DNA from: a virus
Direction: 5' to 3' (one strand)
IMG/VR virus record: IMGVR_UViG_3300044796_000056
Span: 1 to 64,000 of that record
DNA length: 64,000 nucleotides
Each line of letters opens with the position of its first letter. Position 1 is the stretch's first letter. Below are positions 10,540 to 39,502 of the stretch, one piece after another. The position numbers and the translations under genes were made by a program. The notes under the pieces are model-generated. The model was not told where the DNA came from. It saw only the letters and a program-made list of their open reading frames with translations, and ran no database searches.

Positions 10540-11562
10540 TGGTTGAGGTAGCGGCACAAACCGCACCTGAACCTTCGATGGGGTCGTCAGAGAACCGCAC
10601 TAGAAGGTCGAACAGGATGTTCGATAGTCGAAACCGGGAGTCACCAACAAGGTGACGTTGACGACGCAACTCATGGGCCCTCTCCCATGCCAGGCACGCG
10701 GTCACTCTACCACAGAACCGCTGGAACAAGATTTCTTTTGATACGGTCAGCGTCCTCTCAACATGGACTAGCGTTTGGTTGTAAAGCCATCGATGACTCC
10801 GGATTACGTAACCGGAACATATTCTTCAATACATATGGGTGGGCAACGACCACCGCCGAAAATGCCAGGCTAATGTTGTTGAACTGTCTTTAAGTGTCCG
10901 TCTAGATAACGGTAACACCAAGACTCCGGATCAGTAACCGGAAATTATCTTCTGGGTTGCCTCCGCCGCCAACTTCTCTGGTCCATCCGCCAAAGGGTGG
11001 CACTGCTTGACAAAATTATATCCGCAGTGAAAGTGAGGAAATATTCCGATGGCTAACGCTGTCGTGACCAACAGGCCGGAAACGGTAAGCGTTGGTCTAG
11101 CCGTAAAGGTAGAAGTAAGAGCCAAGTGGATTGCCACCTTGAGGCTCATGAGCACTGCTGAGTGAGGCAACGTTGAGTTGCACCAGCACTCTTTAAGTAG
11201 GGTAGAGTGACATACTTGCCTGGTCGGATGATACGTGAGTAGGGTTGCAAACCGGAAACGTATCAGCGTGTGAAAATCATCGCCGTGCGGGACACCGAAA
11301 TGTCCCAGTCATTCAAGGTTTACTGGACCGGCTGCAACTGGTCCAGTAGAAGTCAGGCACGGCAAAGACTAAGCTTGCAGGTTGATGTCGAAACCGAGTA
11401 TGGTCGTCTAGTGGATAGGACGCTCCCGTTAAGGGGGAAACGAGTGTTCGAATCACTCTCATGCGTTGTCCTGACTTAAATTATCGAAGTGGGTTCAACT
11501 CCTACGGGTGCCCGGTGGCTAGCGTACATCGGCGAAACGATGTGACAGCCGGAGAGACGGCA
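10540..11562 (+). ncRNA. large ornate structured RNA, GOLLD-like
   Basis: ~1 kb without credible ORF after promoter 10506-10531; long-range helix 10690-10711 with 11201-11223; E-loop/GNRA hairpins; directly precedes the tRNA array. Confidence 0.65.
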
Positions 11563-12374: not shown

Positions 12375-12677
12375 ATGCGCAAAGTAAGATTTCCTACTGA
12401 TATTGAACGTGCAGCCTACAGACGCAAAGTCGTCGCCCGTTTCAAACGGTTGAAAGGCTGTACTGACTGTGGCTACAAAGCCAATTCAGCAGCGTTAGAA
12501 TTTGATCATGTCGACGAAACTACCAAGACCAAAACGGTAGGATCGTTGATGTACAACGGATGGAAAGACATCAAGAATGAAATAGCAAAATGCGTCGTAC
12601 GATGTGCGAATTGCCACGCTATCAGAACACTTGAAAGAAACTACCGTAAGAAAGATTATGCCCGAGTGGTGGAATAG
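12375..12677 (+). CDS. small HNH endonuclease
   Basis: CTDC...LEFDH...CANCH; 3' end overlaps tRNA-Leu. Confidence 0.85.
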   Translation: MRKVRFPTDIERAAYRRKVVARFKRLKGCTDCGYKANSAALEFDHVDETTKTKTVGSLMYNGWKDIKNEIAKCVVRCANCHAIRTLERNYRKKDYARVVE

Positions 12678-12742
12678 GCAGACACACCGCGCTTAGAACG
12701 CGACGCGAAAGCATGCAGGTTCGATTCCTGTCTCGGGTACCA
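12660..12742 (+). tRNA. tRNA-Leu(TAG)
   Basis: Loop CTTAGAA, long V arm, CCA. Confidence 0.93.
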
Positions 12743-12748
12743 AGTTTT

Positions 12749-12808
12749 GCTAGCAGAACGTCCTCTCACACCAGGCAATTAGAGCCGAAATGTCAAGACG
12801 CTGCGGCT
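12749..12808 (+). ncRNA. repeated pseudoknot RNA motif, copy 1
   Basis: 36-nt core shared with copy 2, different but paired outer stem. Confidence 0.65.
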
Positions 12809-12814
12809 ACCGTT

Positions 12815-12891
12815 TGCGGGTTGGAGAAGTGGCTATCTCGCTTGCCTCATAAGCAAGAGATCCTGGGTTCGAGTCCCAGACTCCGCTACCA
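12815..12891 (+). tRNA. tRNA-Met(CAT), initiator-like acceptor end
   Basis: Loop CTCATAA, unpaired 1-72, CCA. Confidence 0.88.
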
Positions 12892-12998
12892 AATTTGTGG
12901 ACTATTCATCGGGCGAGAGCATCCGCTGTAACAGGCGCGTGATGCCAGTGCAGGTGCTCAATCCATCGTTCTGCCTGACGATACAGGCTTCTTATTCT

Positions 12999-13073
12999 GC
13001 CTTCAAAGCGTAAAAGGTGACGCGGTGGTTTTGTAATCCACAGAACACGGTTCGATTCCGTGTGAAGGCTCCA
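12999..13073 (+). tRNA. tRNA-Thr(TGT)
   Basis: Loop TTTGTAA, CCA. Confidence 0.9.
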
Positions 13074-13083
13074 AGTTTAGTTG

Positions 13084-13150
13084 CCAGTTCTACCGGTCTC
13101 CGAGCCGGTCACCCGACACTAGTGTGGCAGGGTGCACAAATACTGGACCA
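13084..13150 (+). ncRNA. CCA-terminated three-way-junction RNA
   Basis: CCAGT/ACTGG plus ACCA; ACCGG/CCGGT and CACCC/GGGTG arms. Confidence 0.5.
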
Positions 13151-13163
13151 ATTCAAAGTTTAT

Positions 13164-13249
13164 GCGTCGTTGTGTGAGTGGTTAAAACAATCTGTCTGTA
13201 AAACAGATCTCTTCGGGGTACGGTGGTTCGAATCCATCACGGCGCACCA
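13164..13249 (+). tRNA. tRNA-Tyr(GTA)
   Basis: Loop CTGTAAA, long V arm, CCA. Confidence 0.93.
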
Positions 13250-13259
13250 ATTTCAATAT

Positions 13260-13338
13260 GGCACCTTAGCATAGCCTGGCTTAATGCGCTACCCTGTCAC
13301 GGTAGAGATCACGGGTTCGAATCCCGTAGGTGTCGCCA
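13260..13338 (+). tRNA. tRNA-Asp(GTC)
   Basis: Loop CTGTCAC, GCCA. Confidence 0.93.
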
Positions 13339-13343
13339 ATTAT

Positions 13344-13418
13344 GCCTCGTTAGCTCAGCGATAGAGCGCCTCGTTTACACCGAGGATGTCGGCGGTTTGA
13401 TCCCGTCACGAGGTACCA
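13344..13418 (+). tRNA. tRNA-Val(TAC)
   Basis: Loop TTTACAC, CCA. Confidence 0.93.
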
Positions 13419-13424
13419 GTTTAT

Positions 13425-13499
13425 GCCTCACTCGTCCAAAGGCAAGGACGGCTGCCTGATTAGCGGCAAATCGCGGTTCGAGTCCGTGGTGAGGTACCA
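13425..13499 (+). tRNA. tRNA-Ile(GAT)
   Basis: Loop CTGATTA, CCA. Confidence 0.9.
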
Positions 13500-13505
13500 A
13501 TCAAT

Positions 13506-13579
13506 GTCCGTCAAGTGTTACGGTAGCACAGCTGTCTCCAAAACAGCGGGCCGGGGTTCGACTCCCTGGATGGACGCCA
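13506..13579 (+). tRNA. tRNA-Trp(CCA)
   Basis: Loop CTCCAAA, GCCA. Confidence 0.92.
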
Positions 13580-13583
13580 AATT

Positions 13584-13658
13584 GCCCTTATAGCATAACG
13601 GATAGTGTACAGTCCTGCGAAGACTGTGATCCAGGTTCGATTCCTGGTATGGGCGCCA
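13584..13658 (+). tRNA. tRNA-Arg(GCG)
   Basis: Loop CTGCGAA, GCCA. Confidence 0.9.
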
Positions 13659-13666
13659 ATTTGTAA

Positions 13667-13724
13667 AGCCGGAACAGGCCTCTCGCACCAGGCAATTAGA
13701 GCCAAAATGCCAAGCCTCCCGGCT
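13667..13724 (+). ncRNA. repeated pseudoknot RNA motif, copy 2
   Basis: AGCCGG/CCGGCT and AGGC/GCCT stems around the shared core. Confidence 0.65.
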
Positions 13725-13733
13725 AATTTATTT

Positions 13734-13807
13734 CAGGGTAAGGTGTTACGGTAGCATCCGAGTTTTGGAAACTTGTGGCCGGAGTTCAACTCTCCGTACC
13801 CTGACCA
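13734..13807 (+). tRNA. tRNA-Pro(TGG)
   Basis: Loop TTTGGAA, C1-G72, ACCA. Confidence 0.88.
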
Positions 13808-16518: not shown

Positions 16519-16591
16519 GACTTGCCAATTGTTAAGGCAGCATGCCCGGCTTTAAACCGGGAAGAGTTGGTTCGATTCCAACGACAAGTCA
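16519..16591 (+). tRNA. tRNA-like gene with TTA (ochre) anticodon
   Basis: CCCGG-CTTTAAA-CCGGG, perfect T arm, GACTTG/CAAGTC; no encoded CCA. Confidence 0.6.
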
Positions 16592-17540: not shown

Positions 17541-17614
17541 GACTGTATAGCTCAATGGTAGAGCAACGCCACGACACGGCGAAGACCAAGGCTCGATTCC
17601 TTGTACGGTCACCA
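17541..17614 (+). tRNA. tRNA-Val(GAC)
   Basis: Loop ACGACAC (non-U33), ACCA. Confidence 0.85.
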
Positions 17615-37121: not shown

Positions 37122-37197
37122 CGATGTGTAGCTCAAACTGGCTAGAGCAGGATCTCTAAAATCCAAGATCAGGGTTCGATGCCCTGCACAACGGCCA
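37122..37197 (+). tRNA. amber suppressor-type tRNA (CTA)
   Basis: GGAT-CTCTAAA-ATCC arm, canonical D and T arms, GCCA; follows CTAAATA. Confidence 0.85.
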
Positions 37198-38421: not shown

Positions 38422-39126
38422 ATGATGAATTTCAAAGCAGCATTCAAAGCGTGTGCCGACGCCAAGGATATTTCCAGCGTTGACATCGTACAATACGCTA
38501 TCCTTCGCGCCATGAAAGCGAAGACGGCTCAGACTATTGAGGACCGTATCAAGATAGCATCAACCTTTATCCGCCGGCACTTTCGTTCTGTGAAGAATAG
38601 AAAGATGCTCGATAATGGGGTTGATCCAGAAAGAGCGGTTAGGAGAGCGACCGAAATTACTAAGAGTGCTAAGGTCATCTGTGGCATTCTAGAAAAGAGT
38701 ATGTTTACTGATGAACGTGAGCGCATCCTCTACAAAAACATCGCGGTGGCTTTATATGAGCAGTACAAGATCCCTGCGGATCTTTACACCAGACATTACG
38801 TCTACATCTTCGTGCGTCAAGATATGACGCCGGAGTATCAGCTAGTCCAGGCTAGCCATGCGGCGGCTCGCATGGGACAACGTCTAGGATCCAATGGCAT
38901 TGACCAGGGCAAGTTTGATGAGTTGTATTTCAGTGTGATTGGTGTCCCTGATCTTCATGGTCTTGCCAAAGCATTGGAAGACTTCAAGCAGCGCGGTATC
39001 AAGACCTATCCGTTCATTGAGCCAGACATCGGAAACGTGATGACAGCATTCGCTTCCGACCCGGTTTGGTCACATGATCGTAAGGGATTGCTATCTTACA
39101 AGAGATTGGTCTTCAAGAAGGACTAA
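38422..39126 (+). CDS. protein with C-terminal peptidyl-tRNA hydrolase 2-like domain
   Basis: YIFVRQDM....LVQASHAA...FIEPDIGN..TAFA. Confidence 0.7.
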   Translation: MMNFKAAFKACADAKDISSVDIVQYAILRAMKAKTAQTIEDRIKIASTFIRRHFRSVKNRKMLDNGVDPERAVRRATEITKSAKVICGILEKSMFTDERERILYKNIAVALYEQYKIPADLYTRHYVYIFVRQDMTPEYQLVQASHAAARMGQRLGSNGIDQGKFDELYFSVIGVPDLHGLAKALEDFKQRGIKTYPFIEPDIGNVMTAFASDPVWSHDRKGLLSYKRLVFKKD

Positions 39127-39129
39127 ATA

Positions 39130-39415
39130 GGTTTGAATGATTGTAAACGCCTGACTAAAGGCATGTTGGACTGGGGTTCGATTCCCCACGGTTCCACCAA
39201 ATTTCAGGACCATGCTAGAGGGTCCATTATGGGGCCGATCGGTTTCGACAGCGTGAGTAATACACCAAGTGCAATCCGGTATGCTACGACCGTAACAGTG
39301 CAAAACCATAAATGCATCTAACGATGACATCTATGACACCGTAGAGTTGGCTCTAGCAGCCTAACCCTCGGGTCTGAGTTTCGGCCGCTTCCTTGTAAAC
39401 AGAATAAGCGGCCAC
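39130..39415 (+). ncRNA. ssrA: two-piece (circularly permuted) tmRNA
   Basis: T arm plus CGGTTCCACCA ends at 39199 before GGGGCCGA..GGTTTCGAC at 39231; tag ORF 39314-39364 ASNDDIYDTVELALAA*. Confidence 0.9.
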
Positions 39416-39502
39416 TCTTTAACTTAATCAGGCCAGTTTTACTCTTACAGTTTCCAGGCGTATAATAGATAATGTGAACTCCCTTAAACAAGGAAATACA
39501 TT

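What the first reader, a model, noticed from the sequence alone, without database searches (positions are those of the whole stretch)
12749..13724. Duplicated compact pseudoknot motif with covarying outer stem
Seen: the 36-nt core CCTCTCRCACCAGGCAATTAGAGCCRAAATGYCAAG occurs at 12762 and 13679 with 3 differences. The flanks differ but pair in both copies (GCAG-AA-CGTC/GACG-CTGC versus AGCCGG-AAC-AGGC/GCCT-C-CCGGCT). In the core, CTCT pairs with AGAG and GGCA with TGYC in H-type topology. Each copy lies just 3' of a tRNA. I do not recognise it as a known riboswitch or ribozyme. Inference: a new self-cleaving ribozyme for tRNA processing, or a ligand/protein-binding aptamer.
Basis: partly seen in the sequence, partly recalled or inferred. 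Interest (0 to 1): 0.8.

Follow-up and report, generated by a model that had tools for sequence, protein, structure and literature searches.

The report
Phage hairpin RNA linked to RNase toxin
The two repeats are copies of a widespread small hairpin RNA that Rfam does not hold; bacteria and plasmids encode it beside a predicted RNase-toxin gene, and phages carry it alone inside tRNA arrays, so it is probably an RNA antidote that phages have borrowed.

Summary
The 36-nt core is present twice (12762-12797, 13679-13714), each on a different closing stem and 6-8 nt after a tRNA's CCA. The H-type pseudoknot and the ribozyme reading are not supported. I collected 110 distinct relatives. They show three fully nested helices: a variable P1, then P2 (ACA/UGU), then P3 (GGC/GCC). 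The conserved unpaired parts are CCA opposite RAAA and a 7-nt loop AANNRRA. All 16 modelled pairs show compensatory changes.

No Rfam 15 family matches. In bacteria and one plasmid the RNA is a single-copy small gene, often with a sigma-70-like promoter and in some copies a U tract. In 18 loci it abuts a roughly 150-aa gene with Pfam MuF_C (PBECR), whose predicted fold resembles BrnT, colicin D and RelE RNase toxins. No conserved protein antidote lies beside that gene.

Phages carry the RNA alone: in tRNA arrays (23 of 56 viral copies), in the excised spacer of permuted tmRNA genes (at least 5), or behind their own promoter. Two complete Aeromonas phage genomes hold a hairpin nearly identical to that of an Aeromonas plasmid module, but not the protein.

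Best reading (about 0.45, inferred): an RNA partner, probably an inhibitor, of this RNase, used by phages as an antitoxin mimic. No binding, toxicity or expression was shown.

The parts
12753..12804 (+). Copy 1 of the hairpin RNA. P1 outer is GCAG 12753-12756 with CUGC 12801-12804, and the AA bulge is 12757-12758. P1 inner is CGUC 12759-12762 with GACG 12797-12800. The 5' junction CUCUC is 12763-12767. P2 is ACA 12768-12770 with UGU 12791-12793. CCA is 12771-12773. P3 is GGC 12774-12776 with GCC 12784-12786. The loop AAUUAGA is 12777-12783, GAAA is 12787-12790, and the 3' junction CAA is 12794-12796. RNAfold adds three more pairs, 12749-12751 with 12805-12807.
   Evidence: Sequence; pattern match; covariance model 58.2 bits, E 1e-16; fold; helices supported by family covariation.
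13667..13724 (+). Copy 2 of the hairpin RNA. P1 outer is AGCCGG 13667-13672 with CCGGCU 13719-13724, with an AAC bulge at 13673-13675 and a C bulge at 13718. P1 inner is AGGC 13676-13679 with GCCU 13714-13717. The 5' junction CUCUC is 13680-13684. P2 is GCA 13685-13687 with UGC 13708-13710. CCA is 13688-13690. P3 is GGC 13691-13693 with GCC 13701-13703. The loop AAUUAGA is 13694-13700, AAAA is 13704-13707, and the 3' junction CAA is 13711-13713.
   Evidence: Sequence; pattern match; covariance model 51.4 bits, E 1.9e-14; the minimum-free-energy fold gives the same nested helices, z -2.1.
12660..12742 (+). tRNA-Leu(UAG) with encoded CCA at 12740-12742. It is the upstream neighbour of copy 1. 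Its 3' end would define the 5' side of the released hairpin RNA (inferred).
   Evidence: ARAGORN; Rfam tRNA 50.7 bits.
12816..12887 (+). tRNA-Met(CAU), the downstream neighbour of copy 1. RNase P cleavage at its 5' end would free the 3' side of the hairpin RNA (inferred).
   Evidence: ARAGORN; Rfam tRNA.
13584..13658 (+). tRNA-Arg(GCG) with encoded CCA at 13656-13658, the upstream neighbour of copy 2.
   Evidence: ARAGORN; Rfam tRNA.
13734..13807 (+). tRNA-Pro(UGG), the downstream neighbour of copy 2.
   Evidence: ARAGORN; Rfam tRNA.

Best explanation
Both elements belong to a widespread family of small hairpin RNAs that I could not find described. A variable closing helix P1 carries a conserved apical module: 3-bp P2, an asymmetric internal loop (CCA opposite RAAA), 3-bp P3, and a 7-nt loop AANNRRA.

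In bacteria, a provirus and a small plasmid, the RNA is its own gene of about 60-75 nt. It repeatedly sits next to a gene for a roughly 150-aa BECR-fold protein (Pfam MuF_C, also called PBECR) that has no conserved protein antidote.

I infer that the conserved apical module is the recognition surface for this RNase-like protein. I infer that the RNA holds the protein in check, as a toxin-antitoxin or abortive-infection pair of the RNA-protein (type III-like) kind.

Phages carry the RNA without the protein. In the window, the two copies are transcribed within the tRNA-array precursor. I infer that the host tRNA-processing enzymes cut them out (RNase P at the next tRNA, 3' maturation at the previous CCA). 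They would then act as antitoxin mimics that keep a host RNase of this family silent during infection.

Shown here: the family, its fold, its strand, its gene contexts and the predicted protein fold. Inferred: binding, inhibition, toxicity, processing and the benefit to the phage.
For: Structure. 95 aligned members give 89% paired cells against at most 41% for slid controls. All 16 of 16 pairs have changes on both sides, and 0 of 500 shuffles reach the observed values. When the search pattern leaves P3 free, P3 reads GGC/GCC 19, CGC/GCG 13, AGC/GCU 9, GAC/GUC 4, UGC/GCA 3, plus four other Watson-Crick forms. P2 variants GCA/UGC, AGA/UCU and ACU/AGU are compensated.

Strand. P1 holds 173 G-U pairs against 10 A-C single mismatches. 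tRNAs lie next to 23 of 56 viral copies on the same strand, and none was found on the opposite strand.

Own gene in bacteria.
- There is one copy per genome.
- The RNA was found in 4 of 151 Burkholderiales genomes.
- A promoter-like site lies upstream on the RNA's strand in 18 of 47 bacterial or metagenome copies, mostly with the -10 box ending 29-34 nt before P3. The figure is 1 of 27 for viral copies and 0 of 76 in a mirror control (tool scans).
- A run of at least 6 T in the 9 nt after the stem follows 12 of 51 bacterial or metagenome copies and 1 of 28 viral copies (the stem ends were set automatically and are noisy).

Link to the protein.
- A MuF_C open reading frame lies within 1.5 kb in 18 loci. 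Sixteen are convergent, with the stop codon 41-45 nt after P3 in most full-length cases. Two are in tandem.
- Reciprocal test: a tblastn search with the protein found a 3.6-kb Aeromonas veronii plasmid. That plasmid carries the RNA (70.6 bits) 3 nt from the open reading frame's stop codon.
- No conserved small open reading frame lies upstream of the gene.

Protein fold. The model has pLDDT 94. Its best structural matches are BrnT (Z 6.3), a CdiA-CT tRNase (Z 6.2), colicin D (Z 5.3 and 5.0), RelE, YoeB and HigB. A Lys and a His are invariant, in the order that a BECR preprint describes for colicin-like active sites. The MuF-C domain was predicted to be an RNase or RNA-binding domain by Iyer et al. 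2017 (PMC5512222).

Phage copies stand alone.
- Two complete Aeromonas phage genomes have a hairpin nearly identical to the plasmid's, with unrelated flanks.
- Those two genomes have no homologue of the protein, while the positive controls in the same search did match.
- The window's 76-kb record has no homologue either.

Precedent. Phage PhiTE escapes ToxIN with a pseudo-ToxI RNA (PMC3475682, listed).
Against: - No experiment or expression data bears on this. The only RNA-library run that holds the region is kept as contigs, and these have the same lengths and depth as those of the DNA run.
- Only 18 of 110 members have the protein gene nearby. Many bacterial copies sit beside unrelated genes, so the RNA may have another partner or several partners.
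- The structural matches are modest (Z 5-6.3), and Foldseek gave nothing at E<=0.001. Toxicity of the protein is assumed, not shown.
- The protein is absent from PADLOC.
- In the convergent layout, a cis-antisense effect on the mRNA 3' end could do the regulating without any RNA-protein contact.
- The host of the window's phage is unknown. The beta-type tmRNA match only hints at a betaproteobacterium. No host PBECR gene was shown.
- The seed patterns fixed parts of the core, so the invariance of CCA and RAAA is partly due to ascertainment.
Confidence: 0.45

Rival explanations
1. Cis-antisense (type I-like) control, or simply a shared bidirectional terminator. The small RNA converges on the MuF_C gene. 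It acts by pairing with the complementary 3' end of that mRNA, or only by terminating both transcripts. The conserved apical module would then serve a general host factor, such as an RNase or an RNA chaperone, rather than the neighbouring protein.
For: Sixteen of 18 linked loci are convergent, with the stop codon at the foot of the hairpin. Some bacterial copies have a long stem followed by a U tract. Many copies follow ordinary genes where a terminator would be expected: a formyltransferase, a glycosyl hydrolase, a prohead protease.
Against: Cis-antisense pairing is perfect whatever the sequence. It therefore does not explain a roughly 30-nt core kept from Aeromonas to Burkholderiales to diverse phages while P1 changes freely. 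The two tandem loci (L126, L317) place the RNA downstream on the same strand, where it cannot be antisense. Phage copies lie in tRNA arrays and tmRNA spacers, where no terminator is wanted. The partner is a 150-aa soluble fold, not a small membrane peptide.
Confidence: 0.15
2. The RNA is a substrate, cofactor or activator of the PBECR protein rather than its inhibitor. For example, it could be a processed guide-like RNA. Alternatively, it could be an immunity RNA that protects a phage from an RNase it brings in itself.
For: The same linkage data apply. PBECR domains occur in virion-delivered phage proteins (PMC5512222). The window's record is only 44% complete, so a phage-borne PBECR protein could lie outside it.
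Against: Stx phage phi24B has a MuF_C domain inside a 2811-aa open frame but no copy of the RNA. Two complete Aeromonas phages have the RNA but no such protein. No homologue was found in the window's 76 kb.
Confidence: 0.15
3. A self-cleaving ribozyme that trims the 3' end of the upstream tRNA, by analogy with the HDV-like theta ribozymes found next to phage tRNAs.
For: The element sits directly 3' of a CCA end in the window, in 23 of 56 viral copies, and after the acceptor piece of permuted tmRNAs. About 20 unpaired nucleotides are conserved. Theta ribozymes show that phages do use ribozymes beside tRNAs (PMC10879173).
Against: No ribozyme family in Rfam matches at E<=10. The fold is a plain nested hairpin with no crossing helices or multi-helix junction. 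Free-standing bacterial and plasmid copies start about 7 nt after a promoter-like -10 box, so there is little 5' of the hairpin to cleave off. The segment between the CCA and P1 is neither conserved nor paired.
Confidence: 0.05
4. A small-molecule aptamer or riboswitch, or a passive structural spacer or processing signal of stable-RNA precursors.
For: It has a compact, conserved internal loop and apical loop. It is placed in spacers that are removed during tRNA and tmRNA maturation.
Against: Bacterial copies have no downstream gene on the same strand to control, because the neighbour converges on them. A passive spacer would not keep a 30-nt core across phyla. It would not exist as a promoter-driven single-copy gene on a 3.6-kb plasmid.
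Confidence: 0.07

Closest known systems
Type III toxin-antitoxin systems (ToxIN, CptIN, TenpIN) and the pseudo-ToxI RNA of phage PhiTE
   Same: A protein predicted to be an endoribonuclease is encoded next to a structured non-coding RNA, with no protein antidote. The modules occur on plasmids, on a provirus and near restriction genes. Phages carry the RNA alone, as PhiTE does with pseudo-ToxI (PMC3475682).
   Different: ToxI-type antitoxins are tandem direct repeats upstream of the toxin on the same strand, and the toxin itself processes them. Here there is one hairpin, either convergent with the gene or downstream of it, often with its own promoter. The protein fold is BECR (RelE/colicin D-like), not the ToxN/AbiQ fold. 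Binding and neutralisation are not shown.
AvcID (small RNA AvcI with the deaminase toxin AvcD)
   Same: [quoted passage not shown]
   Different: The toxin there is a deoxycytidylate deaminase, not an RNase. I found no sequence or structural relation between the RNAs.
HDV-like theta ribozymes next to phage tRNAs (Kienbeck et al. 2024, PMC10879173)
   Same: A small structured RNA placed right beside tRNA genes in phage tRNA clusters.
   Different: Theta ribozymes are described as HDV-like. From my own knowledge, that fold is a nested double pseudoknot with a catalytic C. This RNA is a fully nested hairpin. It matches no HDV-type Rfam model and also occurs far from any tRNA.
BECR-fold RNase toxins with protein partners (BrnT/BrnA, RelE/RelB, colicin D/ImmD, CdiA-CT/CdiI)
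   Same: These are the best structural matches of the neighbouring protein. A Lys and a His are invariant in the family.
   Different: All of these are neutralised by a protein. Here no conserved protein partner is found, and an RNA gene takes that position.
Stable non-tRNA RNAs in the phage T4 tRNA cluster (species 1 and 2; from my own knowledge, not checked here)
   Same: Small stable RNAs co-transcribed and processed with phage tRNAs, with no settled function.
   Different: Those RNAs are longer (about 120-140 nt). I did not test any sequence similarity.

Membership tests
Any Rfam 15 family (riboswitches, ribozymes, small RNAs) | Covariance-model match to the element | tested here: not met
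   No match overlaps either window copy at E<=10. None overlaps the plasmid, Variovorax or Aeromonas-phage copies.
   55% of cells are paired. The first pair forms in only 12 of 67 sequences. Loop G-to-A changes are not compensated.
   No pair has a change on both sides. L071 and L241 break this stem while keeping the nested P2. GGC instead covaries with the GCC that closes the 7-nt loop.
HDV-like / theta ribozyme | Nested double pseudoknot in which the 5' strand next to the cleavage site pairs with a segment after P3 (fold recalled from my own knowledge) | tested here: not met
   All supported helices are nested. The segment between the tRNA's CCA and P1 is neither conserved nor paired with the core. 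No HDV-type Rfam model matches.
HDV-like / theta ribozyme | Cleavage site within about 5 nt of the tRNA | tested here: inconclusive
   The hairpin starts 6-8 nt after the CCA. No cleavage site is known.
HDV-like / theta ribozyme | Self-scission in vitro | not testable with these tools
   This needs transcription and cleavage assays.
Hammerhead ribozyme | Three-way junction with CUGANGA and GAAA core (from my own knowledge) | tested here: not met
   There is no CUGANGA. The fold is a single unbranched hairpin. The Rfam hammerhead models are silent.
Type III toxin-antitoxin system | Non-coding RNA gene adjacent to the toxin gene, with no protein antitoxin | tested here: met
   Eighteen loci have the MuF_C open reading frame within 1.5 kb. 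The same holds on a plasmid found through the protein. No conserved upstream small open reading frame was found.
Type III toxin-antitoxin system | The toxin is an endoribonuclease | tested here: inconclusive
   Pfam MuF_C at E 1e-10 to 1e-15. The fold matches BECR RNase toxins at Z 5-6.3. Activity was not tested.
Type III toxin-antitoxin system | The antitoxin is an array of tandem direct repeats upstream of the toxin, processed by it | tested here: not met
   There is one hairpin per locus. It is convergent with the gene or downstream of it.
Type III toxin-antitoxin system | The RNA binds and neutralises the protein | not testable with these tools
   The complex tool offered here takes no RNA chains.
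Type I toxin-antitoxin system | Small hydrophobic toxin peptide whose mRNA is silenced by an antisense RNA | tested here: not met
   The partner is a 146-218-aa alpha/beta protein. The two tandem loci cannot be antisense.

The most novel reading that the evidence does not exclude
This is a previously unrecognised RNA-protein toxin-antitoxin or abortive-infection system. A BECR-fold (PBECR/MuF-C) RNase is kept silent by a single conserved hairpin small RNA. Many phages defeat the system by carrying the hairpin as a free rider in tRNA arrays and tmRNA spacers, so that the host's own tRNA-processing enzymes manufacture the antidote.
Probability: 0.35. Interest if true: 0.9.

Novelty: new variant of a known kind. 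Interest (0 to 1): 0.78.

Why it matters
If the inference holds, three things follow.
- It adds a new RNA family with more than 100 members, found in soil, peat and freshwater phages, Burkholderiales, and Aeromonas plasmids and phages.
- It gives a first functional partner to the stand-alone PBECR/MuF-C proteins, which so far have only been predicted to be RNases.
- It shows a general trick: phages use the spacers of tRNA arrays and permuted tmRNA genes as expression and processing slots for an anti-defence RNA.

It would also offer one explanation for some of the non-tRNA filler in large phage tRNA arrays. It is directly testable with a two-plasmid toxicity and rescue assay plus a gel shift.

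Tried and rejected
- Rfam at the gathering threshold and at E<=10 gave nothing on the element, either in the window or on plasmid, bacterial and phage copies.
- blastn of the tRNA region against isolate phages found only tRNA similarity.
It was largely filled by an unrelated high-copy repeat that shares the pattern by chance. I excluded that repeat because its P2 and P1 do not pair.
- The pseudoknot readings were counted and dropped (the structure string was mistyped and was redone).
- Expression: one metatranscriptome run holds the stretch, but only as contigs with the same lengths and depth as the DNA run. It shows neither transcription nor RNA ends.
The word-based protein search returned only 5 relatives. 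A search of 401 Burkholderiales genomes found one close homologue, in the genome the query protein came from.
- PADLOC has no model for the protein.
- Foldseek against the PDB gave nothing at E<=0.001.
- PHROGs annotation of the L126 neighbourhood was uninformative.
- A tree of the proteins did not resolve whether the two tandem, CUCUC/CACUC-junction loci form a clade (38% of bootstrap trees).
- Pfam found nothing in the open reading frame at 12375-12674.
- Searches of this scan's earlier findings returned only first-reader notes on this same window.
Full report
**1. The observation**

The window is a phage-like tRNA array. ARAGORN finds 37 tRNA genes and one permuted tmRNA, and Rfam agrees. 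The record is an IMG/VR virus contig of 76,220 bases, estimated 44% complete.

It had no match in 100 shuffles. tRNA-Leu ends with its encoded CCA at 12742, and tRNA-Arg ends with its CCA at 13658. Each hairpin starts 6-8 nt later, and the next tRNA follows 9-12 nt after it. A covariance model built later finds no third copy in the window or in the full record.

**2. Relatives**

An 18-mer from the core hit five IMG/VR contigs. These had the same core on completely different closing stems. Looser patterns in viral contigs, metagenomes and GTDB genomes brought the collection to 110 distinct members.

The metagenome scan was largely filled by an unrelated repeat, which I removed because it does not form the helices.

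**3. The fold**

The relatives show three nested helices.
- P1 is variable in sequence and length. It has every kind of compensatory change.
- P2 is usually ACA/UGU. Variants are GCA/UGC, AGA/UCU and ACU/AGU, plus G-U intermediates.
- P3 is GGC/GCC in the window. My first patterns fixed P3, so I ran a pattern that leaves it free. It then read GGC/GCC 19, CGC/GCG 13, AGC/GCU 9, GAC/GUC 4 and UGC/GCA 3, plus UGG/CCA, GAG/CUC, GGG/CCC and AUC/GAU once each.

On 95 aligned members, 89% of cells are paired, against at most 41% when the partners are slid. All 16 pairs have changes on both sides. No shuffle out of 500 reaches the observed values.

The conserved unpaired parts are:
- a C before P2 and a C after it;
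- CCA opposite RAAA between P2 and P3;
- the loop AANNRRA.

The third is the R of RAAA.

CUCU:AGAG exists only in a subset, is paired in 55% of cells, and is never compensated. GGCA:UGYC has no change on both sides, and it is broken in L071 and L241, where P2 is kept.

One caveat applies. The invariance of CCA and RAAA is partly built into my search patterns. Only L071 (CUA) shows a variant.

**4. Strand and kind of molecule**

P1 helices contain 173 G-U pairs but only 10 A-C single mismatches. The strand that carries the tRNAs is therefore the strand under selection, and the selection acts on RNA.

No Rfam 15 family matches any copy at E<=10.

**5. Context in bacteria and plasmids**

The RNA is single-copy where present, and it is rare. 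It was found in 4 of 151 Burkholderiales genomes searched.

A sigma-70-like promoter lies upstream on the RNA's strand in 18 of 47 bacterial or metagenome copies. In most, the -10 box ends 29-34 nt before P3, which puts the start of transcription at the foot of P1. The same test gives 1 of 27 for viral copies and 0 of 76 in a mirror-image control. The tool scan agrees in three of the four loci tried.

P1 is followed by a run of at least 6 T in 9 nt in 12 of 51 bacterial or metagenome copies (the stem ends were set automatically and are noisy). Where both a promoter and a U tract are present, the RNA looks like a self-contained small-RNA gene of about 60-75 nt.

**6. The recurrent neighbour**

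In 18 loci an open reading frame of 146-218 aa with Pfam MuF_C (PF18819) lies within 1.5 kb.
- Sixteen are convergent. In most full-length cases the stop codon lies 41-45 nt after the first base of P3, at the foot of the hairpin.
- Two (L126, and L317 in a complete provirus) have the gene upstream on the same strand. In L317 the RNA has its own promoter-like site by eye.

Some of these loci sit beside type III restriction-modification genes. No conserved small open reading frame precedes the gene.

The reciprocal test worked. A tblastn search with the protein found a 3.6-kb mobilisable, ColE1-like plasmid of Aeromonas veronii. Its annotated genes are RepB, a mobilisation protein and this open reading frame. 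The RNA scores 70.6 bits there. It ends 3 nt before the open reading frame's stop codon on the other strand, behind a promoter-like site that matches 10 of 12 consensus positions.

**7. What the protein is**

Iyer et al. (2017) defined MuF-C as a phage-BECR (PBECR) domain, predicted to be an RNase or RNA-binding domain (PMC5512222).

An AlphaFold model built from 16 sequences has a mean pLDDT of 94. Foldseek gave nothing significant.

The all-against-representatives aligner ranks the following highest: BrnT (Z 6.3), a CdiA-CT tRNase (Z 6.2), the colicin D tRNase domain (Z 5.3 and 5.0), RelE, YoeB, MqsR, HigB and ParE. These Z values are modest, but the list is consistent.

A Lys and a His five residues later are invariant. 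A 2026 BECR preprint describes a semi-conserved Lys preceding the active-site His in colicin-like members.

Whether the protein is toxic was not tested.

**8. Context in phages**

Of 56 viral copies, 23 lie within 140 nt of a tRNA on the same strand, and none was found near one on the opposite strand.

At least five lie inside permuted tmRNA genes, directly after the CCA of the acceptor piece. That is the intervening segment. From my own knowledge, this segment is removed during maturation.

Others follow late genes such as a prohead protease.

Two complete Aeromonas phage genomes carry a hairpin almost identical to the plasmid's. The similarity includes the inner seven pairs of P1, while the flanks are unrelated and a promoter-like site of the phages' own lies upstream. 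Neither genome encodes a homologue of the protein, although the same search found it in the positive controls. The window's record has none either.

Conversely, Stx phage phi24B has a MuF_C domain inside a 2811-aa open frame but lacks the RNA.

**9. Interpretation**

What is shown:
- a new structured RNA family;
- its fold and its strand;
- its two lifestyles, as a free-standing gene beside a BECR-fold gene and as a passenger in phage stable-RNA precursors.

What is inferred: the conserved apical module is the recognition surface for the PBECR protein. The RNA restrains that protein, as in type III toxin-antitoxin pairs. Phage copies act as antitoxin mimics, as pseudo-ToxI does for phage PhiTE (PMC3475682).

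For the window, the likely path is this. The RNA is transcribed within the tRNA-array precursor. It is released by RNase P at the next tRNA and by 3' maturation of the previous one. It then acts in trans.

Placing such an RNA among tRNA genes fits the theme, because the best structural matches include tRNA-cleaving toxins (colicin D, CdiA-CT). This last point is only an analogy.

I put the whole chain at about 0.45. The weak links are:
- there is no binding or toxicity data;
- the protein gene is nearby for only 18 of 110 members;
- a cis-antisense mechanism remains possible in convergent loci.

**10. Rivals**

A ribozyme for tRNA 3' processing is unlikely, at about 0.05. The fold is an unbranched hairpin. 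No ribozyme model matches. Free-standing copies with a promoter have little 5' of the hairpin to cleave off.

A riboswitch is unlikely, because bacterial copies have no downstream gene on their strand.

A role as substrate, cofactor or self-immunity RNA of a PBECR protein remains open, at about 0.15.

**11. Limits**

- The only RNA-library run is kept as contigs and cannot show expression.
- The collections could be searched only with exact patterns, which biases the apparent conservation of the core.

Noticed in passing
L041:3293-3346 (-); also L285, L289, L298, L304: The hairpin lies inside permuted (beta-type) tmRNA genes of phage contigs, directly after the CCA of the acceptor piece. The Rfam model expects an 18-nt stretch at that point, and L041 has 52 nt.
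   Followed up: partly
L077-L194, e.g. L082 (four copies), L080, L107, L133, L166: An unrelated high-copy repeat of at least 100 nt filled much of the metagenome scan. It runs from GGCCTAGCGGTTGGGCCCT through AGACCAGGC and GCCAAAATGA to ACTTATGACGTCA. Several copies per contig occur in samples Ga0210059 and JGI2402x/JGI2415x. It looks like a mobile or MITE-like element.
   Followed up: no
window 37122-37197 (+): A tRNA with anticodon CUA, which would read the amber codon. ARAGORN labels it tRNA-Pyl. It lies far from the main array. L011 has two such tRNAs.
   Followed up: no
window 39098-39455 (+): A phage-borne permuted tmRNA. It matches Rfam tmRNA_permuted at 129 bits and beta_tmRNA at 92 bits, which hints at a betaproteobacterial host. 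It carries no copy of the hairpin.
   Followed up: partly
window 12375-12674 (+): A 100-aa open reading frame sits between tRNA-Gln and tRNA-Leu, with paired-cysteine motifs and an HNH-like look. Pfam found nothing at E<=0.01.
   Followed up: partly
window 11397-11466, 16528-16582, 17541-17611 (+): Rfam tRNA matches that ARAGORN did not list. The one at 17541-17611 scores 58 bits; the other two are near the threshold. An earlier first-reader note (e1-6091740) also reports CCA-ended non-tRNA units in other slots of this array.
   Followed up: no
L208, L217, L200, L199, L226: In Polaromonas and Rhodoferax MAGs the RNA sits directly beside type III restriction (res) genes, and in L217 also a DNA methylase gene. 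In L200 the convergent neighbour is a 414-aa protein with an HATPase_c_4 domain instead of MuF_C.
   Followed up: partly
L283:2656-3231 (-): In Aeromonas phage 4_D05 the hairpin is convergent with a 191-aa hypothetical gene that has no Pfam match. The gene after that one carries DUF7265. Either might be another partner of the RNA.
   Followed up: no
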